Shown: positions 17,192-62,726 of the stretch, one piece after another
Layout: every line of letters starts with the position of its first letter
How positions within the stretch are numbered: position 1 is the stretch's first letter
DNA from: Acidobacteriota bacterium
GTDB taxonomy: Bacteria > Acidobacteriota > UBA6911
Length of the DNA: 62,758 nucleotides
Reading direction: 5' to 3'
NCBI GenBank assembly: GCA_016934555.1
Contig: JAFGSS010000001.1
Coordinates: 1-62,758, forward strand
Translations under genes and position numbers: made by a program
Notes under the pieces: model-generated
The model's input: only the letters and a program-made list of their open reading frames with translations
Database searches by the model: none
Told to the model about the DNA's origin: nothing

Positions 17192-18319
17192 ATGGCGAAG
17201 AAATCAGAAACCGGGAAAAAGGCCGCGCCCAGCTCGGGCAAAGCCGTCCTCAAGGCGATCGTAAGCTCGGCGGAGGATATCCGGCGCAAGATCATGGCGG
17301 GCAGGAAGCCGACCATGAAGCTCCCGGTCCGCTCCCTTTCCAACGTCCGGTACCAGCCCGAGCGCGGATTCTTTGAAATGAAGGGGCAGAAGAAGGAACG
17401 GACGCTCACGGTGAACACCGTCAAGACCTTCGCCCAGACCCTGCGCATGGTGGCGCTCTCGAAGGAGCTGGTGGAAAACGACGACATCGCAACCAAGAGG
17501 GAGGCCTACTACGTTTCCAAGAACTGGGAGGAGGCGCGTTTTGCCGAGCAGCCGGAATCTGACACCGTCATGGACGACGTCGAGGCCTTTTTCGGCGTCA
17601 ACCGCGAGCAGCTCGGCTTCATCCCCGAGGAAAAGGGGGGGGACGTCGCCGGCCGCCTGGTCGTGATCGACCGCGACCGCGACACGGGGCAGACGCTCCG
17701 GATCGACTGCACCCGGTTCGGGTCGGGCGCCTACAGCATCCCGATTTCCGTGGAAGACCTCAAGTTCGAGACCCAGGCCGATTTCATCCTCGCCATCGAG
17801 ACCGCGGGGATGTTCCAGCGCCTGGTGAAGCACAACTACTGGAAGAAGGCCAACTGCATCCTGGTCAGCATGGGGGGGGTCCCGACGCGCGCCTGCCGCC
17901 GCTTCATCCGCCGCCTGGCCGACTTCAAAAAGATCCCGGTCTACGTCTTCGTCGACGGGGACCCCTACGGGATCACCAACATCTACCGCACCCTCAAGGT
18001 GGGGAGCGGCAACGCCGCGCACCTCAACGAATACTTCTGCGTCCCCCAGGCCACCTTCCTGGGGATCACGCCCCAGGACGTCATCGACTACAAGCTCCCC
18101 ACCCACCCCCTGAAGGACGTGGACATCAAGCGCGCGCGGGACGCCATCAAAAACGACCCCTTCATCAAACACTACCGGCCGTGGATCAAGGCGATGGAGC
18201 AGATGCTCAAGATGGGGGTGCGCGCCGAACAGCAGGCGCTGGCCAAGCACGGGCTCAACTACGTCATCGAGGAGTACCTGCCCCAGAAGCTCAGCCACCC
18301 CGAACGCTTTTTGCCGTAG
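17192..18319 (+). CDS. top6A: DNA topoisomerase VI subunit A (Spo11-like)
   Basis: REAYYVS (catalytic Tyr region) and the Toprim motifs LAIETAGMF and VDGDPYGI. It follows top6B directly. Confidence 0.9.
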   Translation: MAKKSETGKKAAPSSGKAVLKAIVSSAEDIRRKIMAGRKPTMKLPVRSLSNVRYQPERGFFEMKGQKKERTLTVNTVKTFAQTLRMVALSKELVENDDIATKREAYYVSKNWEEARFAEQPESDTVMDDVEAFFGVNREQLGFIPEEKGGDVAGRLVVIDRDRDTGQTLRIDCTRFGSGAYSIPISVEDLKFETQADFILAIETAGMFQRLVKHNYWKKANCILVSMGGVPTRACRRFIRRLADFKKIPVYVFVDGDPYGITNIYRTLKVGSGNAAHLNEYFCVPQATFLGITPQDVIDYKLPTHPLKDVDIKRARDAIKNDPFIKHYRPWIKAMEQMLKMGVRAEQQALAKHGLNYVIEEYLPQKLSHPERFLP

Positions 18320-38308: not shown

Positions 38309-38480
38309 AGCCTCCTCCTTTCTCCCCCCTGCGGGCGATCATGACACGCCGACCGTCGAAGGGCTATGATCATTATGTCCCAGGAAGGGCCGAAAACAAA
38401 TGGGCCCCTTGCCTTCCGGGGCCCCATCGGGCAACCTACAAAAGAGGGCCTCGAGGACAGACCCGAGGGTGGAGACGCCT

Positions 38481-39008
38481 ATGGAAGCGAAAAACCGGTG
38501 CCCCGAATGCGGATACAGCTCCAATGAGGCCTTTACGGAATGTCCCGCCTGCGCCGCGGAAGAGAAGCCGGGGACCGGTTCCCCGAAAAACAAAATCACC
38601 CTGATTGTGGTGATCCTCCTCGCGCTCTGGGGGGTTTGGAGCTGGATCGGAGGCGATTCCGGCGCCGGGAATTCGGGGCGTGCGGAGCTCAGGATCAGCG
38701 CGGGGGAGAGGGTCGACCTCGCCGGCCACCTGGCCGAGGGTCGCCACACGGTCTTTCTCTTCTATGCCGACTGGTGACCCTCCTGCCGCAGAATACTGCC
38801 TCAGTTGGAGGCGGCCGACGCGCAATCCGATTTTTTCGAACTGCGGGAGATCGACATCACCGACTGGAACTCTTCCGTGGCCGGCCAGTACAACATCCGC
38901 AGCATCCCCCACTGCATGATTTACAGCCGTGACGGCGAGCTGAAGGAATCGGGTCCGGACGTCTGCTGGGCCGTCGTGGAGAATCCGTCGGCCCTGCTGC
39001 GGTACTGA
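38481..39008 (+). CDS. Membrane-anchored thioredoxin-like selenoprotein candidate (in-frame UGA at 38775-38777, motif W-U-P-S-C)
   Basis: GGTGGAG lies before the ATG at 38481. The protein has an N-terminal zinc ribbon (CPECG...CPAC) and a TM helix (ITLIVVILLALWGVWSWIG). The Trx fold then reads TVFLFYADW-TGA-PSCRRILPQLE...NIRSIPHCMIYSRDGE. The track ORFs 38400-38777 and 38805-39008 are in the same frame and are separated only by this TGA. Confidence 0.7.
38796..38814 (+). promoter_or_regulatory. Candidate SECIS hairpin for the Trx-like selenoprotein
   Basis: CTGCCTC AGTTG GAGGCGG is a 7-bp stem (one G-U pair) with a 5-nt loop containing GU. It begins 19 nt after the UGA. Confidence 0.4.
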
Positions 39009-39103
39009 CCGGATGTCGGGCTCCCGTTTTAGGGAGTACCCATCATGCGGGGAAACCTGTATCATTATCCCTGTATGTCAAAATTTGGTCTGGAGGAGAG
39101 AGA

Positions 39104-39430
39104 GTGTTACAAGTTACCGAAAAAGCGAGTGAGATGATCAGGCTTTATCTCAAGGACAGGACAGACGCTCCGTCCATCCGCCTCATGCTGAACGAAGGGG
39201 GTTGATCGGGGCCCTCCGTGGGCATGACTCTGGATGAGTCAACGGAAAACGACGCGTCTTTTGAAAACAATGGGATCACCTTTGTCGTCGACAAGGAATT
39301 TCTGGAACAGATCCAGCCCGTGACGATCGATTTCGTGTCGACCCCCATGGGAGAGGGATTTCAGATCTCCTCCAACCTCCCGAAACCCGAAGGAGCCTGC
39401 GGCTCCTGCGCCGGGTCCTGCAACTCCTGA
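39104..39430 (+). CDS. HesB/IscA-like selenoprotein candidate (in-frame UGA at 39203-39205, motif G-G-U-S-G)
   Basis: GTG at 39104 follows GGAGGAG. The translation reads VLQVTEKASEMIRLYLKDRTDAPSIRLMLNEGG-TGA-SGPSVGMTLDE...GITFVVDKEF...GACGSCAGSC. The TGA occupies the conserved Cys of the IscA/HesB GGCSG motif. The track ORF 39218-39430 is the in-frame downstream half. Confidence 0.7.
39225..39241 (+). promoter_or_regulatory. Candidate SECIS hairpin for the HesB-like selenoprotein
   Basis: TGACTC TGGAT GAGTCA is a 6-bp stem with a 5-nt loop, starting 20 nt after the UGA. A smaller hairpin, GCCC-TCCGT-GGGC, lies at 39211-39223. Confidence 0.35.
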
Positions 39431-39510
39431 CACGATCCAAAACCACGACACGCCAGCCGGCGCCCCTTGCCGGGCGCCGGCCTTTGTTTCAGGACCCGAT
39501 CGGGAGAAGC

Positions 39511-43851: not shown

Positions 43852-45633
43852 CTATCTCCAGTCATCCACGCTGGCGCTCCCCACATAGCCGAAATCCCCG
43901 CCGGACCAGAAGGTGTTCGTACCCCCTCCCGTGACGACGATTTCAATGGATGTGGAGGTTTCGTTGCTGTCCCTGGACGCCATGAATGCCGGGTTGCGCC
44001 CGGCGGAGGCGCTGCGGGTGTACCGGGAAACGGGGACCACCGCCCCCTCGCCCTGCCGGAGCCACCCGGCGTAGGGCTCCACCCCCTTCTTCGCCTGCTC
44101 CAGCGCCCGCTCGTTTTGAGACCAGTAGAGCCACCCCGGCGTTCCGGTGTTTTCAGCGAGGTATTTCGCGAACGATTCCTTGGTGGGGTGGCCGTTCGCC
44201 GCCACGTCCGCCGCGACGATCGGGTCGAGGACGAGCGTGGCCTGGGTGGTGCCGAAGGAGAAGAAATGCTCCAGCCAGCCCCGGATAACCTCGTGAATCG
44301 GCAGCGGCGAGTACCACGCGATGTCGCTCATGCTCCAGCCGCTGAAGACGCTGACGACGCTATCCGATTTTTTGAATCCCTTCTGCACGTGAAGCGGCTT
44401 CCAGCCCGCCGGCAACCCCGCCTCGTTTTCCGGGAAACAGAGGTTGTTATAGTTCAGAGGGTTCCCCTGGCTCCCGAGGTAGGTTTCCCCCGGTTTCCCC
44501 GAACCGCCGAGATTCTTGGAAATCAGGGTCCAGCACCGGCCGATGGCGCTGTTGGCCCGGTTGACGGGTCCCATCGCCCCGATCCCCGTATTCATCCCGA
44601 TTTCGTCCACTACCGGCCCGTTGACCACGACCATCCGGGCGAAGGACGAAGTGGAACTGAACATCGAGGTGACCCCCTTGCCCGCCAGGGCCAGGATCGT
44701 GGGGAAATATTCCGGCTTGGCGCCCGCCATCACGGCGTTCACGGCCACCATCTCGACGGTGTAATACCAGGCTTCGTGCGGGGGGGAGGGGCGCATCTGT
44801 CCCACCCACTCGTCCGGCTGGCGGCTCGTGGCCTTCAGCATCTCGGCGACCTTTTCCTCGGTCGGAAGGATGACGGGATTGCCGTCGGTGAATCCCTGCT
44901 CGTGGAAATACTCCATGAGCTTTTCGGGGGTATCGGGCGGCAGCAGCCGCGTCCGCGCCTCCCGCGGTAGAAAACCGGCCTTGCCGTCCTCGGCCGAAAG
45001 CGGGCGGCTCAGTCCGGCGTATATCTGCCCGAGCATCGGCTGGCCCGAGTTGGGATCGTTCCCGGCGACATATTGGCGGCACAGTTCCGCCGGACGGTCG
45101 GTGATGGGGTGGGGGGTATAGGTGATCCGCATGTTGGGGATCCCCTTCTTGTAGGAGATCGTGGTCACGAGCTCCTTGAAACGCGCCGTGATGATGGGGA
45201 CCGCGGGCACGCCCATCCTTTCCAGGGTCACTGCATGGCCGACGACCGCCGGCGAGCAGCTGCTTCAATGCCCCACCAGGACGATGGCCCCCGCGGCCTT
45301 CGCCTTGACCTCCTTCCAGAGGTTCGGGTCATCATCCATGTACCCGCCGATCTTGTCCTTCAGTACCCACGTCGTCGCGGGATACTTCGCCTTGAGGGCC
45401 GCATGGAGCTCCTCGACGAAGGGCTTCGTGTTCGGATACTTGGTGTCCACGATGTAGACCGTCTTGCCGTCGAGCGAAGCGGGACGCGCCGCCATGGGAA
45501 TCTTGCGAATTTCGGGCTTGATCCCCTGGGGATTCATCACCACTATCCGGGCCGGGTCCGCCGTCCATCCGACCGATGCGGCCGCAGCCGCCATGAGGGC
45601 AAGGCCCAGTATTTTGACCGCCGTGTTTTTCAT
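43852..45633 (-). CDS. UGSC-like selenoprotein candidate with large C-terminal domain (in-frame UGA at 45267-45265, motif H-U-S-S-C)
   Basis: GGGAGG lies before the ATG at 45633. The minus-strand read is ...GAIVLVGH-TGA-SSCSPAVVGHAVTLERMGVPAVPIITARF..., verified on the nucleotide sequence. The track ORFs 45265-45687 and 43852-45231 are in the same frame, 12 codons apart, with this TGA the only stop between them. The N-terminus resembles a signal peptide or membrane anchor. Confidence 0.65.
45231..45259 (-). promoter_or_regulatory. Candidate SECIS hairpin for the USSC selenoprotein
   Basis: On the minus strand: CUGC-UC-GCCG-[GCGGUCGU]-CGGC-CAU-GCAG. The apical loop contains GGUC about 21-24 nt from the U of the UGA, similar in position to the E. 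coli fdhF SECIS loop. Confidence 0.4.
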
Positions 45634-45693: not shown

Positions 45694-45875
45694 GCCTGAA
45701 GACCCATTAAATCACAAATCGGCCGGAATCGCTCGGTCCAAATCAGGGGCAAACCGCCGCGGGAATAAAAAGGGGCTGTTAGCCATCGGGCCCCGCGTAT
45801 GGTAATCTAACCTGTTTGGTGAAAAATGAAGCCAAGACGCAATACCTGTGCCACCCTCGCCTCCGGTTTGTCATC

Positions 45876-46238
45876 ATGCATGAACTAGGCATCGCGCAGA
45901 ACATCATGGAAATTGTCCGGCAGTCGGTCCCCGAAGGACTGGCCCGGGACATCAGGAAGATCAGGGTCCGGGTCGGGCAGTTCGCGGGAGTGGTCCCCGA
46001 TTCGCTCGATTTCTGCTTCGGCGTGATGGCGGGGGAATCGGAGATGCCGCGGGCGGCGCTCCTCATCGAGGAGGTGCCCACGGCCTGCCGCTGCCGGGGG
46101 TGCGGACGGGAATTCGAGATGGAAGAACTGGTGTTCCTCTGCCCCCACTGCGGCGGCACCGACCTGGAGGTGATTTCGGGCAAGGAACTGGAGGTCGTGG
46201 ACATCGAACTGGTGGATCATGGCGGTGAGGCCTTATGA
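45876..46238 (+). CDS. hypA: Hydrogenase nickel insertion protein HypA
   Basis: MHELGIAQNIMEIV... with CRCRGCG...CPHCGG zinc motifs. Confidence 0.9.
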   Translation: MHELGIAQNIMEIVRQSVPEGLARDIRKIRVRVGQFAGVVPDSLDFCFGVMAGESEMPRAALLIEEVPTACRCRGCGREFEMEELVFLCPHCGGTDLEVISGKELEVVDIELVDHGGEAL

Positions 46239-46891
46239 GCATAGTGACCATTGAGCGGAAAGTACTCGAAAAGAACGACCAGATCGCCGAGCGGAACCGG
46301 CGCTTCTTCCGGGACCGGGGGATCTTCGTCCTGAACCTCGTCAGCAGCCCGGGCGCCGGGAAGACCTCCATCCTGGAAAAGACTTTCGAGCGGTTGCGGG
46401 ACGACTGCAGGATGGCCGTCATCGAGGGGGACGTCCAGACCGACCTGGACGCCCAGCGGGTGGCCGAGTACCAGGTCCCCGTGGTCCAGATCGTGACCAT
46501 GGGGGGCTGCCACCTCGAGGCGGGCCTGGTGGCCGACGCCATGGGAAAACTGGACCTGGACTCCGTCGACCTGCTCTTCATCGAAAATGTCGGGAACCTG
46601 GTCTGCCCTTCCGGCTACGACCTCGGGGAGGCGCTGAAGGTGGTGGTCCTGAGTACGACCGAGGGGGACGACAAACCCCTGAAGTACCCGGCGATGTTCC
46701 GCAACGCATCGGTCCTCCTCATCAACAAGACCGACCTGATCCCCTACGTGAACTGCCGGCTCGACGTCCTGCGCGGCAACGCCCTTAAAATCAATCCCGA
46801 TCTCCGGGTTTTTGAAATATCCTGCTCCACGGGCGCCGGGATCGACGCCTGGTGCGAATGGCTCAGGGGAAAGGGCGCTTCCGGGCAGTGA
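46235..46891 (+). CDS. hypB: Hydrogenase nickel-incorporation GTPase HypB
   Basis: P-loop SSPGAGKTSILE, ENVGNLVCP and LINKTDL. The ATG overlaps the hypA stop (ATGA). Confidence 0.9.
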   Translation: MSIVTIERKVLEKNDQIAERNRRFFRDRGIFVLNLVSSPGAGKTSILEKTFERLRDDCRMAVIEGDVQTDLDAQRVAEYQVPVVQIVTMGGCHLEAGLVADAMGKLDLDSVDLLFIENVGNLVCPSGYDLGEALKVVVLSTTEGDDKPLKYPAMFRNASVLLINKTDLIPYVNCRLDVLRGNALKINPDLRVFEISCSTGAGIDAWCEWLRGKGASGQ

Positions 46892-46899
46892 TTCAAAGG

Positions 46900-49233
46900 A
46901 TGCAGATCACCATCCAGGGAGCGGTCCAGGGGGTTGGTTTCCGCCCTTTTATCCACAGGCTCGCTTCCGGGATGGGTCTCACCGGATCGGTCCGGAATTC
47001 CTCCCAGGGGGTTTTCATCGAGGTCGAAGGGGAACCACCGTTGCTCGACTCCTTCCTCCTGCGGATCGAAAGGGAGAAGCCGGAGCTCTCCTTCATCCAG
47101 AGCCTGGAATTCTCCATCCTCGACCCGGTCTTCTTCCGGGGGTTTACAATCGGGCCGAGCGAAGCGGCGGGGGAGACCAACGCCCTGATCCTGCCCGACA
47201 TCGCCACCTGCGACGACTGCGCCCGCGAAATCATGGACCCCTCCAACCGCCGCTACCGCTATCCGTTCACCAACTGCACCCGCTGCGGTCCACGCTTCAC
47301 CATCATCGAATCCCTCCCGTACGACCGGCCCAACACCTCCATGAAGTCATTCGAGATGTGCCCCCGGTGCCGGGCCGAGTACGAAGACCCGGCTGACCGA
47401 CGTTTCCACGCGCAGCCGAACGCCTGCCCCGTGTGCGGCCCTCGGCTCGAGCTACGCGACGGCGCGGGACGGACCGTCGCCGAAGACGGCGGGGCGCTCG
47501 AGGCGGCGGCCGGGGCGGTGCTCGGGGGGAAGGTCGTCGCCGTGAAGGGCCTGGGGGGCTTTCACCTCATCGCCGACGCCACCCGGGCCGGATCGGTCGA
47601 AACCCTCCGGCAAAGGAAGCACCGGGAGCAGAAGCCCTTCGCCCTCATGTTCCCCTCGCTCGACGCCGTGCGCGCCGAGTGCCTCGTCTCCCCGCTCGAG
47701 GAGCGGGGGCTCCGGTCCCCCCAGTCGCCCATCGTCCTGCTCGCGAGGAGAACGGATCTCCCGTCGTCCCTGGCCGAAGGAGTCGCCCCGGGCAATCCCT
47801 TCCTGGGGGTGATGCTGCCCTACACCCCGCTGCACCACCTGCTGATGCACGAGATCGGCCGCCCCGTCATCGCCACCAGCGGGAACCTCGCGGACGAACC
47901 GATCTGCATAGACGAGGCCGAAGCCCTCGGGCGCCTCGAGGGGATCGCCGATCTTTTTCTCGTGCACGACCGGCCCATCGTGCGGCACGCGGACGATTCC
48001 ATCGTCCGGATCGTCCTCGGGCGCGAGCTCGTAGTGCGCAGGGCCCGCGGCTACGCCCCCCTTCCCCTGCGTCCGCACGGGATCGTTTCCGACATCCTCG
48101 CCGTCGGCGGGCACCTGAAAAACACCATCGCCGTTTCCGTCGCCGGGAATGTTTTCCTCAGCCAGCACATCGGGGACCTGGAAACGGAGCAGTCGGGCAG
48201 GGCCTTCCGCGGGGCGATCGAGAGTTTCCTGCGCCTCTACCCGGTGCGGCCGAAGTGGATCGCAGCCGACATGCATCCCGATTACGCCTCGAGCCGGTAC
48301 GCCCGGGCGGCGGGCATCCCGCTCATCGAAATCCAGCACCACCACGCCCACGTCGCCGCCTGCATGGCGGAGAACGAACTGGAGGGAGATGTCCTCGGGG
48401 TGTGCTGGGACGGCACCGGATACGGGGAGGACGGCACCGTCTGGGGAGGGGAATTTCTGCGGACGGAAGGGACCGGGTTCGCCCGGGTGGCCGCAGTGCG
48501 CCGGTTCCGTCTGCCGGGGAGCGCCGCGGCGGTCCAGGAACCGCGGCGCTCGGCCCTCGGGGTGCTGTACGAGATCCTGGGCGATGCCGTCTTCGGGGAA
48601 ACCGATCTCGCGCCGGTCCGGGCCTTCAGCGCGGCCGAGATCCCCGTCCTCCGCACTATGCTGCGCCGGGGCATCCACTCCCCCTGGACGACGAGCGCGG
48701 GGCGGCTTTTCGACGCGGTGGCGTCCCTTGCCGGGTTGCGCCAGAAGCTCCGGTTCGAGGGCCAGGCGGCCATGGAGCTGGAGTTCGCCGCGGAGGGGAC
48801 GGGAGGGGGCGCCTACCCCTTCGGGCTTCTGGACCCGGAGCGCGCCGGGGCGGGAGCCCTCGGCGTGGACTGGGAACCGCTGATCCGGGCCGTCATCGCC
48901 GATGTCCGCGCCTCCGTCCCCCCGGCGGAAATCTCCGGGAGGTTTCACAACGCGCTGGCCGACATCATCGTGGCGGTGGCGCAGAGGGTGGGAGTCCCGC
49001 GCGTAGCCTTGACCGGGGGCTGCTTCCAAAACAAAATACTGTTGGAGCGGGCCGTGGGGAGGCTGCGGGAGGAGGGGTTCTGCCCCTACTGGCACCAGCG
49101 GATTCCTCCCAACGACGGCGGCATCGCGCTGGGACAGATCGCGGCGGCGTCGCGGATTCTCGGCAAGGGCGAAACGAACGAGTTCATAATCAGAGGAGGG
49201 GGCCATGTGCCTGGCGGTTCCGGGAAAGATTGA
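46900..49233 (+). CDS. hypF: Carbamoyltransferase HypF
   Basis: Acylphosphatase domain (IQGAVQGVGFRPFIHRLA), two zinc fingers (CDDCAREIMDPSNRRYRYPFTNCTRCGPRFTI; CPRCRAEYEDPADRRFHAQPNACPVCGPRL), and YrdC and Kae1-like domains. Confidence 0.9.
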   Translation: MQITIQGAVQGVGFRPFIHRLASGMGLTGSVRNSSQGVFIEVEGEPPLLDSFLLRIEREKPELSFIQSLEFSILDPVFFRGFTIGPSEAAGETNALILPDIATCDDCAREIMDPSNRRYRYPFTNCTRCGPRFTIIESLPYDRPNTSMKSFEMCPRCRAEYEDPADRRFHAQPNACPVCGPRLELRDGAGRTVAEDGGALEAAAGAVLGGKVVAVKGLGGFHLIADATRAGSVETLRQRKHREQKPFALMFPSLDAVRAECLVSPLEERGLRSPQSPIVLLARRTDLPSSLAEGVAPGNPFLGVMLPYTPLHHLLMHEIGRPVIATSGNLADEPICIDEAEALGRLEGIADLFLVHDRPIVRHADDSIVRIVLGRELVVRRARGYAPLPLRPHGIVSDILAVGGHLKNTIAVSVAGNVFLSQHIGDLETEQSGRAFRGAIESFLRLYPVRPKWIAADMHPDYASSRYARAAGIPLIEIQHHHAHVAACMAENELEGDVLGVCWDGTGYGEDGTVWGGEFLRTEGTGFARVAAVRRFRLPGSAAAVQEPRRSALGVLYEILGDAVFGETDLAPVRAFSAAEIPVLRTMLRRGIHSPWTTSAGRLFDAVASLAGLRQKLRFEGQAAMELEFAAEGTGGGAYPFGLLDPERAGAGALGVDWEPLIRAVIADVRASVPPAEISGRFHNALADIIVAVAQRVGVPRVALTGGCFQNKILLERAVGRLREEGFCPYWHQRIPPNDGGIALGQIAAASRILGKGETNEFIIRGGGHVPGGSGKD

Positions 49234-49453
49234 GAGCATCGACAGCACCGATCCGGTGTTTCGCAGCGGAAAGGTCAATTTCGGCGGGATCCTCAAGGAG
49301 GTCAACCTCGCCTACGTGCCGGAGGCGAACATCGGCGATTACGTCCTCGTGCATGTCGGGTTCGCCATCAGCACCATAGACGAGGCGCAGGCGAAGGAAA
49401 CACTCTCGTACCTCGAGGAGATCGACCGGCTGGCCGGGGTGGAGAACGGATGA
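49205..49453 (+). CDS. hypC: Hydrogenase assembly chaperone HypC
   Basis: The [10 protein letters not shown]-terminus is diagnostic for HypC/HupF. Confidence 0.9.
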
Positions 49454-50541
49454 AGCATATCGACGAGTACCGCGACGGGACCGCCGCCCGGGCCTACGCG
49501 GAGGCGATCGCCAGGATCACCACCCGGCCCTGGACGATCATGGAAGTATGCGGCGGACAGACCCATTCCATCGTCAAGTTCGGCATCGACGAGCTGCTCC
49601 CCCCCGCCGTCACCCTGGTCCACGGCCCCGGGTGCCCCGTATGCGTCACGGCGCTCGAGTATGTCGAAAAGGCGATCGAAATCGCCTCCCTCCCCGGGGT
49701 CCTGTTCTGTTCCTTCGGGGACATGCTGCGGGTCCCGGGGATTTCCCGGGACCTTCTCTCGGTAAAAGCGTCGGGAGGGGACGTGCGGATCGTCTATTCG
49801 CCCCTGGACGCGCTCAGGCTGGCCGCGGACCATCCCGACCGCGAGGTCGTATTCTTTGCCGTGGGGTTCGAGACCACGGCGCCCGCCGTCGCCATGGCCG
49901 CCTGGCAGGCCGTCCGGCAGGGGGCGCGCAATTTTTCCATGCTGGTGTCCCACGTGCGGGTCCCCCCGGCCATGGAAGCGGTCCTCTCGTCCCCCGACAA
50001 CCGGGTCCAGGGCTTCCTGGCGGCGGGTCATGTGTGCGCCGTGATGGGAACGGCCGAATACGGGCCGATCGCCTCCCGCTACCATATCCCCATCGTCGTC
50101 ACGGGATTCGAACCGGTCGATATCCTGCAGGGGCTTTACATGTGCCTCCGGCAGCTCGAACAGGGGCGGGCGGAGGTGGAAAACCAGTACTCCCGCTCGG
50201 TGCGCCCCGAAGGGAACCCCGCCGCCCGGAAGCTGATGGGGGAGATATTCCGGGTGGTCCCGCGCAAGTGGCGCGGGATCGGGGAAATCGCCCAAAGCGG
50301 CCTGGGCCTCAGGGAGAAATATGCCGGGCTCGACGCCGAGACCCGGTTCGGGGTCGCCCATCGCACGACCGAGGAGCCGCCGGAGTGCCGGAGCGGCCTG
50401 GTCCTGCAGGGGATTCTGAAGCCCCGCGAATGCCCCGAGTTCGGCACCCGATGCACCCCGGAACACCCCCTGGGAGCGACGATGGTGTCTTCCGAGGGGG
50501 CCTGCGCCGCCTACTATCATTACCGGAGAAGAAGAAGCTGA
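49450..50541 (+). CDS. hypD: Hydrogenase formation protein HypD
   Basis: [20 protein letters not shown] and GFETTAP motifs. The ATG overlaps the hypC stop. Confidence 0.9.
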
Positions 50542-57592: not shown

Positions 57593-58927
57593 CTACCGCG
57601 GCAGCTTCATCCCCTTCATCAGGCGCGGCATGATGCCGCGGCTGAGGCTTCGCATCATTTTCCGGGTTTCGACATACTGCTTGAGCAGCCGGTTGATTTC
57701 GGAAACGGGACGCCCGCACCCCCGGGCGATGCGCTTCTTCCTGCTGCCGTTGAGGATCTGGTGGTTGCCGCGCTCGGCATCCGTCATCGAATCGATGATG
57801 GCCTCGATATGGATCAGTTCCTTCTCGTCCACCTTCATCTGGCCGATGCCGCGCAGCGGCCCCATGTTCGGCAGCATCCCCAGGATCTGCTCCAGGGGGC
57901 CCATTTTCCGGATCTGCTTCAGCTGGTCGCGAAAATCCTCCAGCGTGAACGCGTCCTTGCGGATCTTCTCCGCCATCGCCTCGGCCTGGTCCCGGTCGAC
58001 CGTGTCCTCGGCCTTCTCGATCAGCGACAGGACGTCCCCCATCCCCAGGATGCGGCCCGCCAGCCGGTCGGGGAAAAAGGGCTCGAGCGCCTCGACCTTT
58101 TCCCCCGTCCCCACGAACTTGATCGGCTGCCCGGTCACGCTCTTGATGGAAAGCGCCGCCCCGCCGCGGGCGTCCCCGTCCATCTTGGTCAGGATGACGC
58201 CGGTCAATCCCAGTCTCTCGTGAAACTCCCGGGCGCTGCGGACCGCATCCTGGCCCGTCATGGCGTCCGCGACCAGCAGGATCTCCACCGGGGGGGTCGC
58301 GGTGCGGATCCGGTCCAGTTCCCCCATCATCTCGTCGTCGATGTGAAGCCGTCCGGCCGTGTCGATGACGAGGACGTCGTATCCCCCGTTGCGGGCGTGC
58401 CGCAGCCCCTTTTCGGCCCGGGATACCGGGTCCAGGTCGGCGGGGTCGTCGAAATACCCGAGGCGGTTGGCGGCGCACAACACCCGCAGCTGTTCGACCG
58501 CGGCCGGGCGGTAGACATCGACCGACACCAGCAGGGGGGTGTGGTTGTTCTTCACGAGCCACTGGGCGAGCTTGGCGCTGCTGGTGGTCTTCCCCGATCC
58601 CTGCAGCCCGACCATGAGGAACACGCTCGGCGGCTGCCGCGAAAACCCGAGGCCCGCCTGCTCCCCCCCGAGCAGTTCCACGAGCTCGTCGCGCACCACG
58701 CGGATGACCTGCTGGCCCGGGGTCAGCGACTCGAGCACCTCCTGCCCCAGGGCCCGCTGCTTGACCCGCTCCACGAATTCCTTGGCGAGCTTGAAGTGGA
58801 CGTCGGCGTCGAGCAGGGCGTTGCGGATCTCACGCGCCGTCTCCTCGACGTGGCGTTCCGAGACCCGCCCCTGGCCGCTCAGGTTCCTGAGGATCTTCTG
58901 AAGCTTGTTGGATAGACCGTCCAGCAT
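57593..58927 (-). CDS. ffh: Signal recognition particle protein Ffh
   Basis: N-domain [17 protein letters not shown]-domain [15 protein letters not shown] and DTAGRL, and a Met-rich M-domain. Confidence 0.95.
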
Positions 58928-59053: not shown

Positions 59054-59079
59054 GAGGTTTTTTGCGACGTTGGAAACTT

Positions 59080-60978
59080 ATGAGGCACGTAATCGCGGGG
59101 ACGGCGGGGCACATCGACCACGGCAAGAGCGCGCTGGTCCGCGCGTTGACGGGGGTCGATCCCGACCGCCTGAAGGAGGAGCAGCAGCGGGGCATCACGA
59201 TCGACCTGGGGTTCGCCCACCTGGACCTGGGGGACGTCCAGGTCGGGTTCGTCGACGTCCCGGGGCATGAGAAATTCGTCAAGAACATGCTCGCCGGGGT
59301 GGGGGGCATCGACTTCGTGCTCCTGGTCATCGCCGCCGACGAATCGATCATGCCGCAGACACGGGAGCATTTCGACATCTGCCGCCTCCTCGGGGTGAGC
59401 GCCGGGATCGTCGTCATCAACAAGGTCGACCTCGTGGACCCGGAGATGCTGGAATTGGTCGTCGACGAGGTGACCGAAGCGATGGCCGGGTCTTTCCTGG
59501 AAAAAGCCGAAATCATCCCCGTCAGCTCCAGGACCGGCGAGGGGATCGAACGGCTGAAGCGCTCGATCCACGACCTGGCGCTGACCGCAGCCCCACGTCC
59601 CGGCAACCGGCTGCTCCGGCTCCCCATCGACCGTGCCTTCAGCATCCACGGCTTCGGCACCGTGGTGACCGGCACGCTGACCTCGGGCGAGATCCAGAAG
59701 GACCAGGAGATCGAATTCGTGCCGGGCGGTCTGACGGCCAAGGTGCGCGGGCTGCAGGTGCACGGCCGGATGACGGCGCGCGCGGTGGCCGGCCAGCGCA
59801 CGGCGGTCAATCTCCAGGGGATCGACCTCGGGCAGGTGGAGCGCGGAATGGTCGTGACGGTCCCCCGCCTCTTCCGCCCCACGCAGATCCTGGACGTCCG
59901 GTTGTCGCTTCTGCCCGACGCCAAGCCGCTGCGAAACCTGGTCAAGGTCCGCTTCCACCAGGGGACGCTGGAAGTACTCGCGCGCGTCGCCCTCCTCGGA
60001 CAGGACACCCTCGCCCCGGGGGAAACCGCCTACGCCCAGCTGAGGCTGGACGCACCCGCCTTCTGCCTCCATGACGACGCCTTCATCATCCGGCGCTTCA
60101 GCCCCACGATCACCATCGGCGGCGGCCGCGTCCTCCACCCCAACCCGTCCAAGCACAAAAGCACCGACGGGCGCACCCTCGCGGCGCTCAAGGAGCTGGA
60201 CCGGGGGGAGCTCGAGGCCAAGATCCCGGTGCTCGTCGCTACCGATGCCAAGCGGGCGGTGACGGTGGGCGGGCTGAATTCGCTGCTGGGGCTGCCGGGG
60301 CCCGAAATCACCCGGATCTGCGCGGAACTGGCGAAAGCGGGGCGCATCGTCATGATCCCGGCGCCGTCCCCGATCCTGACCCTCCCATCGGTGGTGGCCG
60401 ACCTGCAGAAGGAGACCCTGGCGCGCGTCGCCGCGTTCCACAAGGACAACGAGCTGCAGCGGGGGATATCGAAAGAGGAGCTGCGCAAGCGTTTCTACGA
60501 CGACGTCCCGCTCGAGGTCTTCCGCCACTGCCTCGACCGGATGGTGGAAGCGCGGCAGATCGTTTTCCTGGGGGAGGCGGTCTCCCTGTACGGCAGGGAA
60601 ATCCAGCTGTCGGCGGAGGAGGAAGCACTCCGGGAGATGATCGAGGCCACGGTCCGGCAGGCAGCCTACCAGCCCCCCGCCATGACCGAGCTGCAGGCAT
60701 CCATTCCTGCGGACGCCGAGGGCGTCCGCCGCATCTTCTTCTGGATGCTGAAGGAAAAGATCCTGGTGAAGCTGTCGGACGACCTCATCTATCACCGCGA
60801 GACGCTCGAGGAGATGAAGGGGCGGATCCGGGCGACGTTCGCCCCGGGGGCCCGGTTCGGGGTCGCCGACTTCAAGGATCTCTTCGGCATCACCCGCAAG
60901 CACGCCATCCCGCTGCTCGAGCACTTCGACCGGGAGAAGTTCACGCGCCGCCTGGGCAACGACCGGGTCCTGGTATAG
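59080..60978 (+). CDS. selB: Selenocysteine-specific elongation factor SelB
   Basis: [25 protein letters not shown]...[10 protein letters not shown]...DVPGHEKF...NKVDL. A long C-terminal winged-helix extension (about 630 aa total) is characteristic of SelB rather than EF-Tu. Confidence 0.9.
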
Positions 60979-61282: not shown

Positions 61283-62380
61283 TCAGGCCGGCGGGCCTCC
61301 GGATTTCCGTGCCAGGAAACGCCCGGAATCCCCCCATTCCCCATAGGCGATGGACCCCCCGGACTCCCGGATCCGGGCCTCCAGGAGTTCCACGCTCTCC
61401 TCCGGCGCCTGGTCCAGGCCGGGCTTGTTTTCATACAACAGGTAGTCGTGTCGGTATCTTGCCGGGGTGAGGTTCGGCATGACGACGTTCGCCCCCGCCA
61501 GGATCGCCCTTTCCCTCCCCCCGGGATCGATCGCCTGCATGGCCGTCGTAGCCGCGATATTGATGTCGGGCATCATCACGCGCAGCAGCGCGACCATCCT
61601 CAGGGAGAGCTCGAGCCGTTTTTGGGCGGGCGGAAGCCGCCGCGCGTGGGCGTAAAGGGGGGTGTCGGGGTGTTCGATGTAGGGCCCCATGCCGATCATG
61701 TCCACGTCCAGGTCGCGGAAGAAGAGGAGGTCGTCCGCGAGATCGGCCGCCGTCTGCATAGGCGCGCCGATCATCACGCCCGTCCCCACCTGGTACCCCG
61801 CATCGCGCAGGGCCCCCAGGGCCTCCAGGCGGGAAGCGTGGCGGTGGCGGGCGTCATCCGGGTGGAGCTTCCGGTAGAGGTCGGGGCTCGAGGCCTCGAT
61901 GCGGAGCAGGTAGCGGTGCGCCCCGGCTTCGAACCAGCGGCGGTAGGTGTCGGGCGTCTGCTCCCCGAGGGACAGGGTGACGTGCAGCGCGCCCCCCCCG
62001 AGCGCACGGATGCCCCGGAGGATGCGCTCCATCCTCGCGACGAACGGGGCGTCGTCGCGCTCCCCCGCCTGGATCACGATCGAACCGAAACGGCGCTCGA
62101 ACGCATGGCGGGCGGCGGCGATCGTTTCCTCCTCCGTCATCTCGTATCTCACCGCGGCGGCGTTGCCCGAACGGATGCCGCAGTAGAGACAGTTCTTGGA
62201 ACAGATGTTCGAGTATTCGATCAGGCCGCGCAGGTAGACCCTGCCCCCCACGCCCGAGCGCTTCACCGCCGCGGCCCGCTCAAAAAGCGGCCCGCACTCC
62301 CCTTCGTCCGCTTCCAGCACCCGGATGAGGTCTTCCCGCTCCAGGCTCTCCTTCCCCAGGATCTCCGCGATCGATTTCAT
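61283..62380 (-). CDS. hydE: HydE-like radical SAM enzyme ([FeFe]-hydrogenase maturase family; BioB/PylB-related)
   Basis: YLRGLIEYSNICSKNCLYCGIRSGN...RYEMTEEE...VIQAGE...GVMIG...NVVMPNLTP...YENKP. ATG at 62380. Confidence 0.6.
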   Translation of the reverse strand: MKSIAEILGKESLEREDLIRVLEADEGECGPLFERAAAVKRSGVGGRVYLRGLIEYSNICSKNCLYCGIRSGNAAAVRYEMTEEETIAAARHAFERRFGSIVIQAGERDDAPFVARMERILRGIRALGGGALHVTLSLGEQTPDTYRRWFEAGAHRYLLRIEASSPDLYRKLHPDDARHRHASRLEALGALRDAGYQVGTGVMIGAPMQTAADLADDLLFFRDLDVDMIGMGPYIEHPDTPLYAHARRLPPAQKRLELSLRMVALLRVMMPDINIAATTAMQAIDPGGRERAILAGANVVMPNLTPARYRHDYLLYENKPGLDQAPEESVELLEARIRESGGSIAYGEWGDSGRFLARKSGGPPA

Positions 62381-62393
62381 GCCCCTTCCCTTC

Positions 62394-62726
62394 TCAGCAC
62401 GGCGGGTCGAGGGGGGCGGCCGCCTCGCCGAGCCAGGCAAGGTAATCACCGTCGCCGGCGGTGATCGGCAGGGCGGCTATTTCGGGAACCTCGTAGGTGT
62501 GCAGGCGGCGGATCTCCCGGCGCACCGCCTCGAAATTTTCCGCACGGGTCTTGACCAGCAGCAGGCACTCCGGCTCCCGGCATACGTCCCCCTTCCAGCG
62601 GTAGACGCTCTCGACGCCGGGGACGATGTTGACGCAGGCGGCCAGGCGTGCCTCGACGAGCGCGCGCGCGATCCCTTCCGCCGATTCCGCGCCGTCGGTG
62701 GCGCACAAAACGACGATTTCGCCCAT
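62394..62726 (-). CDS. cutA: Divalent-cation tolerance protein CutA
   Basis: LVEARLAACVNIVPGVESVYRWKGDV...LLLVKT...HTYEVPEI. Confidence 0.85.
   Translation of the reverse strand: MGEIVVLCATDGAESAEGIARALVEARLAACVNIVPGVESVYRWKGDVCREPECLLLVKTRAENFEAVRREIRRLHTYEVPEIAALPITAGDGDYLAWLGEAAAPLDPPC

What the first reader, a model, noticed from the sequence alone, without database searches (positions are those of the whole stretch)
38481..39008. Unannotated selenoprotein candidate: zinc-ribbon + TM + thioredoxin fold with W-U-P-S-C active site
**Seen in the sequence.** The TGA at 38775-38777 sits exactly where thioredoxin-fold proteins carry the first Cys of WCxxC (FLFYADW-U-PSC). The frame stays open through a canonical Trx-fold continuation (SIPHCMIYSRDGE), and a 7-bp hairpin with a GU-containing loop starts 19 nt downstream.

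**Inference.** The predicted topology is unusual. The zinc ribbon would be cytoplasmic, followed by a single TM helix. That places the Sec-containing Trx domain outside the cytoplasmic membrane.

**Established knowledge.** Trx-like selenoproteins are a known class.
Basis: partly seen in the sequence, partly recalled or inferred. Interest (0 to 1): 0.65.

Follow-up and report, generated by a model that had tools for sequence, protein, structure and literature searches.

The report
Membrane-anchored thioredoxin-like selenoprotein gene
A gene that annotation cuts in two at a TGA stop codon is really one gene for a membrane-anchored, probably periplasm-facing thioredoxin-like enzyme with selenocysteine in its active site: a genuine but fairly ordinary addition to a well-known class of bacterial selenoproteins.

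Summary

- **Gene.** 38481-39008 (+) encodes a 175-residue protein: N-terminal CxxC..CxxC zinc ribbon, one transmembrane helix, and a thioredoxin-fold domain with active site W-U-P-S-C. U is the TGA at 38775.
- **Relatives.** Acidobacteriota relatives and three more distant lineages keep the TGA. They also keep a conserved coding frame after it, and conservation stops at the second TGA.
- **Cysteine homologues.** Thirteen homologues read FYADW-C-xx-C at the same place.
- **SECIS.** A hairpin 22-40 nt from the UGA (GCCUC-AG(G)UU(G)-GAGGC) occurs in every Sec form examined and in no Cys form. It is built with codons that are rare in this genome.
- **Machinery.** selB lies in the window, and two other selenoprotein genes are nearby (IscA/HesB-type, UGSC-type). 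TGA is otherwise the commonest stop codon here.
- **Location.** Relatives without the zinc ribbon carry cleavable signal peptides, so the Sec domain is most likely outside the cytoplasmic membrane.
- **Novelty.** The zinc-ribbon/TM/Trx architecture is common among Cys homologues. Trx-like UxxC selenoproteins are a long-known class. This is a new, unannotated member, not a new kind.
- **Untested.** selA, selD and tRNA-Sec could not be checked because the genome search was shut.

The parts
38341..38370 (+). Sigma-70-like promoter candidate (ATGACA-18-TATGAT) upstream of the gene.
   Evidence: Consensus scan only, 10 of 12 matches. Not evidence of function.
38471..38474 (+). Shine-Dalgarno GGAG, 6 nt before the ATG.
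   Evidence: Read from the sequence.
38481..39008 (+). Complete selenoprotein gene: 175 residues, with Sec99 encoded by TGA and a terminal TGA stop.
   Evidence: Translation. Orthologues L001-L009, L011 and L012 share the same structure. The public annotation of this contig stops at residue 98 (P0163).
38499..38552 (+). N-terminal zinc ribbon, C7-P-E-C10 ... C21-P-A-C24, predicted cytoplasmic.
   Evidence: Weak Pfam matches to zinc-ribbon models, all below their cut-offs (DZR, RUBY_RBDX, Zn_ribbon_LapB). The same motif occurs in Cys homologues P0014, P0023, P0030, P0042, P0059, P0098, P0113 and P0151. The fourth Cys is lost in the L004 lineage.
38589..38657 (+). Single transmembrane helix, residues about 37-59 (ITLIVVILLALWGVWSWIG).
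   Evidence: Hydropathy window with mean Kyte-Doolittle score 2.24. The AlphaFold2 model has a helix at 37-56.
38688..39005 (+). Thioredoxin-fold domain, residues about 70-175, predicted extracytoplasmic.
   Evidence: PF00085 above its cut-off. AF2 pLDDT is 86-96 over residues 71-170. The Foldseek top hits are all thioredoxins.
38775..38777 (+). UGA codon for selenocysteine 99, first residue of the UxxC redox motif (W-U-P-S-C).
   Evidence: Aligns with Cys in 13 homologues and is kept as TGA in all Sec-form loci. In the model it sits at the N-terminus of helix 100-115.
38796..38814 (+). SECIS hairpin CUGCCUC-AGUUG-GAGGCGG, positions +22..+40 counted from the U of UGA.
- Present at the same offset in every Sec form, including loci at about 40-50% protein identity.
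- Absent in 13 Cys forms.
- Pair 23:39 occurs as U-G, U-A and G-C.
- It uses the rare codons CCT (5.1% of Pro) and TTG (3.9% of Leu).
39104..39430 (+). Downstream neighbour: IscA/HesB-family selenoprotein gene (GG-U-SG, TGA at 39203), possibly co-transcribed.
   Evidence: NF038090 IscA_HesB_Se scores 118.8 bits against a cut-off of 85 when TGA is read through. The L004 orthologue has Cys at that position. No terminator was called between the two genes.
39456..39481 (+). Strong intrinsic-terminator-like hairpin after the HesB-like gene.
   Evidence: Stem of 10 G-C pairs followed by a T-rich tail.
59062..60978 (+). selB, the selenocysteine-specific elongation factor (trans-acting part).
   Evidence: TIGR00475 scores 377.2 bits against a cut-off of 242.25, covering model positions 1-579 of 581.

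Best explanation
The stretch 38481-39008 is one gene for a 175-residue selenoprotein.

**Decoding.** The UGA at codon 99 is decoded as selenocysteine by SelB (encoded at 59062-60978). SelB is recruited by a small mRNA hairpin that starts 19 nt after the UGA.

**Protein.** It has a cytoplasmic N-terminal four-cysteine zinc ribbon, one transmembrane helix, and a thioredoxin-fold domain. The redox centre is a Sec99/Cys102 pair (W-U-P-S-C) at the N-terminus of helix alpha-1, facing the conserved cis-Pro143 loop.

**Topology (inferred).** The helix acts as an N-in/C-out signal anchor, so the Sec-containing domain faces the periplasm.

**Function (inferred).** The domain works as a thiol-disulfide oxidoreductase through a selenenylsulfide intermediate. 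Sec is the attacking nucleophile and Cys102 the resolving residue.

**Shown here.**
- The gene structure.
- The Sec/Cys alignment.
- Selection on the downstream frame.
- The SECIS association with Sec forms.
- The fold.
- The presence of selB.

**Inferred, not shown.**
- The topology.
- The catalytic mechanism.
- The direction of electron flow (reductant versus oxidant).
- The substrates.
For: 1. **Domain across the TGA.** The Trx domain match spans the TGA. The AF2 model gives a confident Trx fold with U99 at the helix N-cap, and Foldseek finds only thioredoxins at the top.
2. **Orthologue conservation.** Eleven orthologous loci from Acidobacteriota-type contigs keep TGA plus 76 conserved codons and then a stop, after which similarity collapses.
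3. **Selection downstream.** In pairwise comparisons downstream of the TGA, differences fall mostly at third positions. Window versus L004 gives 7 synonymous and 8 non-synonymous codon differences in 78 codons, with 6/3/9 differences at codon positions 1/2/3. Protein conservation is higher than upstream.
4. **Other Sec lineages.** L023 (WUPAC, 44% GC contig, same zinc-ribbon architecture), L025 (WURAC) and L026/L027 (WUPPC) also keep TGA plus an open conserved frame.
5. **Cys homologues.** Thirteen carry TGC or TGT at that codon. The sister of the Sec clade is P0014, with zinc ribbon + TM + WCPSC (bootstrap/aLRT 98/92).
6. **Hairpin.** It lies at +23..+39 in all Sec forms and in no Cys form. 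Of cells, 93.9% are paired against 41-59% for slid registers, and pair 23:39 is seen as UG, UA and GC. CCT and TTG, both rare in this genome, build the stem and loop.
7. **Sec use in this genome.** selB is present. An adjacent curated-family selenoprotein is present (IscA_HesB_Se). A UGSC-family gene has an in-frame TGA at 45267.
8. **No global reassignment.** TGA is the stop of 16 of 33 long ORFs, so the code is not reassigned.
9. **Extracytoplasmic domain.** Family members without a zinc ribbon start with signal peptides, for example MKKPVILYLIMLLFPFHADA and MRSWTLLWSATVVWLGIGSLTAADR.
10. **Transcription (weak).** A 168-nt metatranscriptome contig matches 38766-38933 with no mismatch, across the TGA.
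Against: - **Sec machinery.** selA, selD and tRNA-Sec were not found in the window and could not be sought in the genome (search shut; no tRNA in the window). An earlier unchecked note reports selA elsewhere in the genome.
- **Hairpin statistics.** The hairpin is short. Its folding energy is not better than shuffles. Four of its seven pairs never vary, and only one pair shows a double change.
- **Overlap with a protein motif.** The hairpin lies on the conserved peptide P-Q-L/V-E-A, so part of its conservation is at the protein level.
- **Topology.** The positive-inside bias is weak: 46 versus 34 K+R over 13 zinc-ribbon homologues, and 3 versus 2 in this protein.
- **No biochemistry.** There are no data for any family member. 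Whether the protein is a reductant or an oxidant is unknown.
- **Zinc ribbon.** It has lost one Cys in the L004 lineage, so it may not be essential.
Confidence: 0.85

Rival explanations
1. Two separate products or a decaying gene. The TGA is a real stop, the product is a 98-residue zinc-ribbon membrane protein, and the downstream 67-codon ORF (TTG at 38805) is separate or dead.
For: Gene callers split it this way in every database entry: P0002-P0005 at 98-101 aa, and P0010 and P0048 as fragments. Sec insertion is generally inefficient, so some truncated product is expected.
Against: - The Trx domain is split through its active site by such a reading.
- The TGA and the downstream frame are conserved in at least four lineages down to about 40% identity.
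- Cys homologues are continuous.
- The TTG 'start' lies inside the hairpin loop and has no Shine-Dalgarno sequence before it.
Confidence: 0.04
2. UGA is read through, but not as selenocysteine. Near-cognate Trp or Cys is inserted, or Cys is delivered on tRNA-Sec when selenium is scarce.
For: The Sec biosynthesis genes were not verified here. Cys is functionally acceptable at this site in most homologues.
Against: - selB is present and is dedicated to Sec-tRNA-Sec.
- A Sec-form-specific hairpin lies at the canonical distance.
- Two other selenoprotein genes in the window match curated Sec families.
- If Cys were intended, a one-base TGA-to-TGC/TGT change would suffice, yet TGA is kept.
Confidence: 0.05
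3. It is a selenoprotein, but with the opposite topology or not membrane-inserted. The Trx domain would be cytoplasmic and tethered to the inner face of the membrane.
For: The positive-inside signal is weak for this protein, 3 versus 2 K/R. The Pfam best match is the classical, mostly cytoplasmic thioredoxin family.
Against: - Homologous domains in relatives follow cleavable signal peptides.
- An N-terminal four-Cys zinc ribbon is unlikely to be exported and stay reduced.
- Two further Cys (C145, C161) are co-conserved in the Sec clade and its Cys sister P0014. This is compatible with a structural disulfide outside the cytoplasm. That reading is an inference, because no distance was measured.
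Confidence: 0.12

Closest known systems
Sec-containing thioredoxin / 'Trx-like 1' (COG0526) UxxC selenoproteins (Zhang & Gladyshev: PMC1088965, PMC2398784; listed as Thioredoxin PF00085 UxxC in the 2026 review PMC13188914)
   Same: - PF00085 thioredoxin fold.
- Sec replaces the first Cys of CxxC.
- The bacterial SECIS lies just downstream inside the coding region.
- Cys homologues are widespread.
   Different: - It is not a bona fide thioredoxin: TIGR01068 scores 41.5 bits against a cut-off of 96.8.
- The motif is WUPSC, not WUGPC.
- It has an N-terminal zinc ribbon and membrane anchor.
- The catalytic domain is probably periplasmic.
Cys homologues of the same family, e.g. P0014 (262 aa, zinc ribbon + TM + WCPSC) and P0023/P0030/P0042/P0059/P0113 (zinc ribbon + TM + WCGPC). 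Sources name them 'thioredoxin 1' or 'thiol-disulfide isomerase/thioredoxin'.
   Same: - Same three-part architecture.
- Same domain signature: ISxGERVDL .. FxFYADW[C/U]xxC .. LRxIDI .. SIP.
- P0014 is sister to the Sec clade and shares the two extra Cys.
   Different: They have Cys instead of Sec and no hairpin at +23..+39.
Membrane-anchored periplasmic thiol-disulfide oxidoreductases TlpA / ResA / CcmG (DsbE) / StoA
   Same: - Signal-anchor plus an extracytoplasmic Trx-fold CxxC domain.
- A W-C-P-x-C type motif also occurs in CcmG-type proteins (from my own knowledge).
- The likely working principle is the same: thiol-disulfide exchange outside the membrane.
   Different: - All these models score far below their cut-offs: StoA 32.3 against 210, ResA 17.7 against 170, DsbE 12.2 against 123, and Pfam AhpC-TSA and Redoxin below gathering.
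- There is no neighbouring cytochrome c maturation, CcdA or DsbD gene.
- It has a zinc ribbon.
- It has Sec.
Other curated Trx-like selenoprotein families: SaoT NF040730, HUIPC-motif NF047660, VPGUxxT NF041383, Trx7/PDZ NF041199, TsoB NF045694 (PMC13188914)
   Same: Trx-like fold with a Sec-containing redox motif. Several are predicted to be exported.
   Different: None of these models matches at E <= 1, except TsoB at 11.9 bits against a cut-off of 805. This is a separate subfamily.

Membership tests
Bacterial selenoprotein (SelB/SECIS-dependent UGA recoding) | In-frame UGA aligned with a conserved, catalytic Cys in homologues. | tested here: met
   TGA at 38775 aligns with TGC or TGT in 13 homologous loci.
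Bacterial selenoprotein (SelB/SECIS-dependent UGA recoding) | Coding conservation continues past the UGA to a later stop. | tested here: met
   76 conserved codons lie between the UGA and the stop. Differences are biased to third positions, and conservation is lost after the second TGA. The same holds in L023, L025 and L026.
Bacterial selenoprotein (SelB/SECIS-dependent UGA recoding) | [quoted passage not shown] | tested here: met
   A 6-7 bp stem at +22..+40 with loop AGUUG or AGGUU is present in all Sec forms and no Cys form. The energy z-score alone is not significant.
Bacterial selenoprotein (SelB/SECIS-dependent UGA recoding) | SelB encoded by the organism. | tested here: met
   TIGR00475 scores 377.2 bits against a cut-off of 242.25 at 59062-60978.
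Bacterial selenoprotein (SelB/SECIS-dependent UGA recoding) | SelA, SelD and tRNA-Sec encoded by the organism. | not testable with these tools
There is no tRNA in the window.
Bacterial selenoprotein (SelB/SECIS-dependent UGA recoding) | Selenium actually incorporated in the protein. | not testable with these tools
   This needs 75Se labelling or mass spectrometry.
Thioredoxin superfamily domain (Pfam PF00085) | Score above the Pfam gathering threshold. | tested here: met
   43.6 bits against 23.5, residues 88-154.
Thioredoxin superfamily domain (Pfam PF00085) | Trx fold with CxxC at the N-terminus of helix alpha-1 and a conserved cis-Pro loop. | tested here: met
   The AF2 model has strand 89-95 followed by helix 100-115, and P143 before strand 144-148. 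P143 is invariant in a 15-sequence alignment. Foldseek top hits are thioredoxins with E about 1e-6.
Bona fide thioredoxin (TrxA, TIGR01068) | Equivalog score above the cut-off, WCGPC motif, soluble cytoplasmic protein. | tested here: not met
   41.5 bits against a cut-off of 96.8. The motif is WUPSC. A TM helix is present.
TlpA / ResA / DsbE(CcmG) / StoA periplasmic reductases | Match to the family models above their cut-offs. | tested here: not met
   StoA 32.3 against 210, ResA 17.7 against 170, TlpA 15 against 230, DsbE 12.2 against 123. AhpC-TSA 22.4 against 26 and Redoxin 18.6 against 26.6.
Named Trx-like selenoprotein families of NCBIfam (SaoT, HUIPC-motif, VPGUxxT, Trx7/PDZ, TsoB) | Match to the family model. 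| tested here: not met
   Only TsoB appears, at 11.9 bits against a cut-off of 805. The others are absent at E <= 1.
'Trx-like 1' (COG0526) UxxC selenoprotein family of Zhang & Gladyshev 2008 | COG0526 assignment with a UxxC motif. | tested here: inconclusive
   The UxxC motif is met. COG models are not available here. Cys homologues are named 'thiol-disulfide isomerase/thioredoxin' by JGI, which is the wording that PMC2398784 gives for COG0526.

The most novel reading that the evidence does not exclude
The zinc-ribbon/TM/Trx proteins form an uncatalogued selenoprotein subfamily, made on membrane-bound ribosomes. The signal anchor emerges about 40 codons before the UGA, so SelB would have to decode UGA during co-translational insertion. 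Together with the adjacent IscA/HesB-type selenoprotein, the protein would form a dedicated two-selenoprotein module that links a cytoplasmic metal or Fe-S (or selenium) carrier to a periplasmic selenol redox centre. The zinc ribbon would be the cytoplasmic docking or sensing element.
Probability: 0.1. Interest if true: 0.6.

Novelty: new member of a known kind. Interest (0 to 1): 0.38.

Why it matters
**Annotation.** The finding corrects an annotation error that recurs across databases. The gene is stored as a 98-101 aa 'hypothetical protein' plus a 67-aa fragment.

**Selenoproteome.** It adds a membrane-anchored, probably periplasmic member to the bacterial selenoproteome. It also documents Sec use in an anaerobic Acidobacteriota lineage, which has at least three selenoprotein genes within 7 kb.

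**Material for experiments.**
- Close natural Sec/Cys pairs exist: P0014 for this protein, and the L004 orthologue for the neighbouring HesB-like protein. They would allow a test of what Sec adds to an extracytoplasmic thiol-disulfide oxidoreductase.
- The very compact, well-conserved SECIS (6 bp plus a 5-nt loop) is a convenient test object for SelB recognition outside the Proteobacteria.

None of this overturns current understanding.

Tried and rejected
- **Rfam.** A gathering-threshold scan of the whole window gave no hit, so no curated RNA family matches in the window, the SECIS region included.
- **Folding energy.** Energy against shuffles for 38775-38840 was not significant, so energy alone was dropped as an argument.
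- **ARAGORN.** No tRNA was found in the window or in 11 related loci.
- **Positive-inside rule.** The bias was only weak, so topology rests on the signal-peptide homologues instead.
- **Global TGA reassignment (code 4 or 25).** Rejected. TGA ends 16 of 33 long ORFs and ends this gene itself.
- **Membership in TlpA/ResA/DsbE and in named Trx-like selenoprotein families.** Rejected on scores.
- **Alternative start at 38400.** Not supported by the orthologues, whose conserved N-terminus begins at M-E/D-A/E-K-N.
- **First literature search.** It returned mostly eukaryotic selenoprotein papers. Two searches failed on term syntax.

Full report
**1. The observation**

The sequence is as described.
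- An ATG at 38481, with GGAG 6 nt upstream, opens a frame that reads MEAKNRCPECGYSSNEAFTECPACAA...FLFYADW.
- The frame meets TGA at 38775-38777 and continues in frame as PSCRRILPQLEAADAQSDFFELREIDITDWNSSVAGQYNIRSIPHCMIYSRDGELKESGPDVCWAVVENPSALLRY to a second TGA at 39006-39008.
- With the TGA read through, Pfam Thioredoxin (PF00085) matches residues 88-154, straddling the TGA, at E = 3.1e-11 and 43.6 bits against a gathering score of 23.5.
- The hairpin CUGCCUC-AGUUG-GAGGCGG lies at 38796-38814.
- Its folding energy is not better than shuffled sequence (z = -0.53), and Rfam has no match in the window. The sequence alone would not prove a SECIS.

**2. Comparative evidence that the UGA is decoded**

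Database entries are truncations.
- The large protein collection holds only 98-101 aa 'proteins' ending in FYADW at 69-87% identity, plus one 146-aa Cys homologue.
- Fetching their contigs shows the short entries are gene-caller truncations. In L001-L009, and in two Acidobacteriota MAG contigs (L011, L012), the TGA is followed by the same 76 codons and a stop. A 67-aa 'gene' is called in frame there.
- NCBI's own call on the window's contig is the 98-aa fragment (P0163).

The downstream part is under selection.
- It is better conserved than the N-terminal part. The L004 lineage is 69% identical upstream, but has only 8 amino-acid differences in 78 downstream codons.
- Differences fall mainly at third codon positions, and similarity collapses right after the second stop.

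More distant Sec forms exist.
- L023, from a 44% GC contig with the same zinc-ribbon architecture, reads WUPAC.
- L025 reads WURAC and L026/L027 read WUPPC. These are exported two-domain proteins whose second domain carries the TGA.
- In each the frame stays open and conserved after the TGA.

Cys forms are continuous. Thirteen homologous loci, mostly Thermodesulfobacteriota and other MAGs, have TGC or TGT at exactly this codon: FLFYADW-C-PSC, C-GPC, C-HAC, C-APC, C-PVC.

In a tree of the Trx domains, the window's clade plus L023 is monophyletic (99/89). Its sister is a Cys form with identical architecture and motif: P0014, zinc ribbon + TM + WCPSC (98/92). L025/L026 form a second Sec pair nearby.

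**3. The SECIS**

- All Sec forms carry a hairpin at the same offset from the UGA, +23..+39: UGCCUC-AGUUG-GAGGCG/A in the window's clade and L023, and GGCCUC-AGGUU-GAGGCC or -GGGGCC in L026 and L025. None of the 13 Cys forms folds there.
- On a gap-free alignment of seven distinct Sec-form sequences, 93.9% of cells pair, against 41-59% for registers slid by 1-3 nt.
- Pair 23:39 occurs as U-G, U-A and G-C, and pair 27:35 as U-A and U-G.
- Four of seven pairs never vary, so covariation is modest.
- Codon usage gives a second, independent argument. The stem and loop are written with CCT (5.1% of Pro codons in 33 long ORFs of the window) and TTG (3.9% of Leu codons). These codons are kept in all orthologues and in the low-GC L023.
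- The position and the small loop with G agree with the bacterial SECIS description in PMC1088965.
- The two other candidate selenoprotein genes of the window have comparable hairpins at +23 and +15.

**4. Sec decoding in this organism**

- selB is in the window: TIGR00475 at 377 bits against a cut-off of 242.
- The gene just downstream (39104-39430, TGA at 39203) matches the curated selenoprotein family IscA_HesB_Se (NF038090) at 118.8 bits against 85. Its L004 orthologue has Cys at that position.
- The UGSC-family gene at 45687-43852 has an in-frame TGA at 45267.
- TGA is otherwise the commonest stop, ending 16 of 33 long ORFs, so this is site-specific recoding.
- selA, selD and tRNA-Sec could not be checked. 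The window has no tRNA and the genome search was shut.
- An earlier, unchecked note of this scan reports selA on another contig.

**5. The protein**

The AlphaFold2 model was built from a 15-sequence alignment and has mean pLDDT 79, with 86-96 over residues 71-170. It shows:
- a small N-terminal beta-hairpin, the zinc ribbon (C7, C10, C21, C24);
- a helix at 37-56;
- a disordered linker;
- a classical Trx fold, with U99 at the N-terminus of helix 100-115 and invariant P143 before strand 144-148.

Foldseek against the PDB returns thioredoxins only at the top.

The protein is not a bona fide thioredoxin (TIGR01068 at 41.5 against 96.8). It is not a TlpA/ResA/DsbE/StoA member, and it does not belong to any named Trx-like selenoprotein family of NCBIfam. 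The 2026 review PMC13188914 lists those families.

**6. Topology and architecture**

- The full library search finds 2187 relatives at E <= 0.001 and 386 at E <= 1e-10.
- Among the best 150, most proteins of up to 320 aa start with a hydrophobic signal or anchor segment.
- At least nine have the same zinc ribbon + TM + Trx layout with Cys. So the architecture is typical of this family rather than peculiar to the selenoprotein.
- Members without the ribbon have classical cleavable signal peptides. This places the Trx domain outside the cytoplasmic membrane.
- The positive-inside bias of the anchor is weak, so N-in/C-out is an inference. I estimate about 75-85% likelihood.
- Two further cysteines (C145, two residues after the cis-Pro, and C161 in the last helix) are co-conserved in the Sec clade, L023 and P0014. 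They may form a structural disulfide. This was not measured.

**7. Context**

- A promoter-like site lies at 38341-38370. No terminator is called between this gene and the HesB-like gene, and a strong terminator follows the latter at 39456-39481. The two selenoprotein genes may therefore be co-transcribed.
- A conserved AT-richer intergenic stretch could also hold a second promoter.
- Synteny (TPR, OEP, M28 peptidase, ZupT, YtxH | Trx-Sec, HesB | radical SAM) is conserved in the Acidobacteriota orthologues.
- No ccdA/dsbD or cytochrome c maturation gene is nearby.
- A 168-nt metatranscriptome contig from a sediment study matches 38766-38933 without mismatch. This is weak evidence of transcription across the TGA.

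**8. Mechanism and verdict**

- Most likely the protein is a signal-anchored, periplasm-facing thiol-disulfide oxidoreductase. Its nucleophile is Sec99 and its resolving residue Cys102, cycling through a selenenylsulfide.
- Whether it acts as reductant or oxidant, and on what, is unknown. The xx dipeptide varies across the family (PS, GP, PP, AP, HA).
- Trx-fold UxxC selenoproteins have been known since the Sargasso Sea and GOS analyses (PMC1088965; PMC2398784, 'Trx-like 1', COG0526).
- I therefore file this as a new, unannotated member of a known kind, solidly supported and of moderate interest.

Noticed in passing
window 39104-39430; L004 6622-6948: The adjacent IscA/HesB-type gene has TGA (GG-U-SG) in the window. 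Its orthologue in the L004 lineage has Cys (GGCSG) in an otherwise about 85% identical protein. This is a very close natural Sec/Cys pair, while the Trx-like gene next to it keeps Sec in both.
   Followed up: partly
window 39012-39075 (and L001, L004, L008 after their stops): The spacer between the two selenoprotein genes holds a conserved block: CTCCCGTTTTAGGGAGTACCCATC ... GTATCATTAT. It contains a small hairpin and a -10-like TATCAT/CATTAT. This could be a second promoter or an RNA element, and neither scan called it.
   Followed up: no
L004-L007, L012 (orthologue residues 21-25): The zinc ribbon is degenerate in this lineage: CPAC has become CPGRG and the fourth Cys is lost. The TM helix and the Sec-Trx domain remain intact, which suggests the ribbon is dispensable.
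   Followed up: no
L025 74-880; L026/L027 1501-2280: These are exported two-domain relatives. The first Trx-like domain has lost its CxxC (WSPAW, or DDWTPDG) and the second carries Sec (WURAC, WUPPC). They form a further unannotated selenoprotein type in the same family.
   Followed up: partly
P0011 (1307 aa), P0012 (1741 aa), P0050 (2166 aa): These are giant proteins with 5-12 tandem copies of this Trx-like domain. P0016 and P0015 look like fragments of such arrays, and P0016 ends at ...EFYADW, so it may hold another TGA.
   Followed up: no
window residues C145 and C161 of the protein (nt 38913-38915, 38961-38963): Two extra cysteines are co-conserved only in the Sec clade, L023 and the Cys sister P0014 (SIPHC / DVC). 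They may form a structural disulfide or a third redox residue near the cis-Pro loop.
   Followed up: no
window 57593-58927 (-) and 59062-60978 (+): selB is transcribed divergently from ffh, the gene for the SRP protein. This is a curious neighbourhood, given that at least one selenoprotein here is a signal-anchored membrane protein.
   Followed up: no
window 45816-50541 and 61283-62449: A hypA-hypB-hypF-hypC-hypD cluster (HypF at 785.6 bits, HypD at 483.8 bits) and a HydE-like radical SAM maturase (316 bits) lie in the same window. A topoisomerase VI subunit A-like gene lies at 17192-18319. Together they point to an anaerobic lifestyle.
   Followed up: partly
window 38460: The best DNA-holding metagenome run carries a strain variant with a 12-nt insertion (ACCTGATGACAA), about 20 nt upstream of the start codon, plus a few substitutions in the 5' leader.
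   Followed up: no
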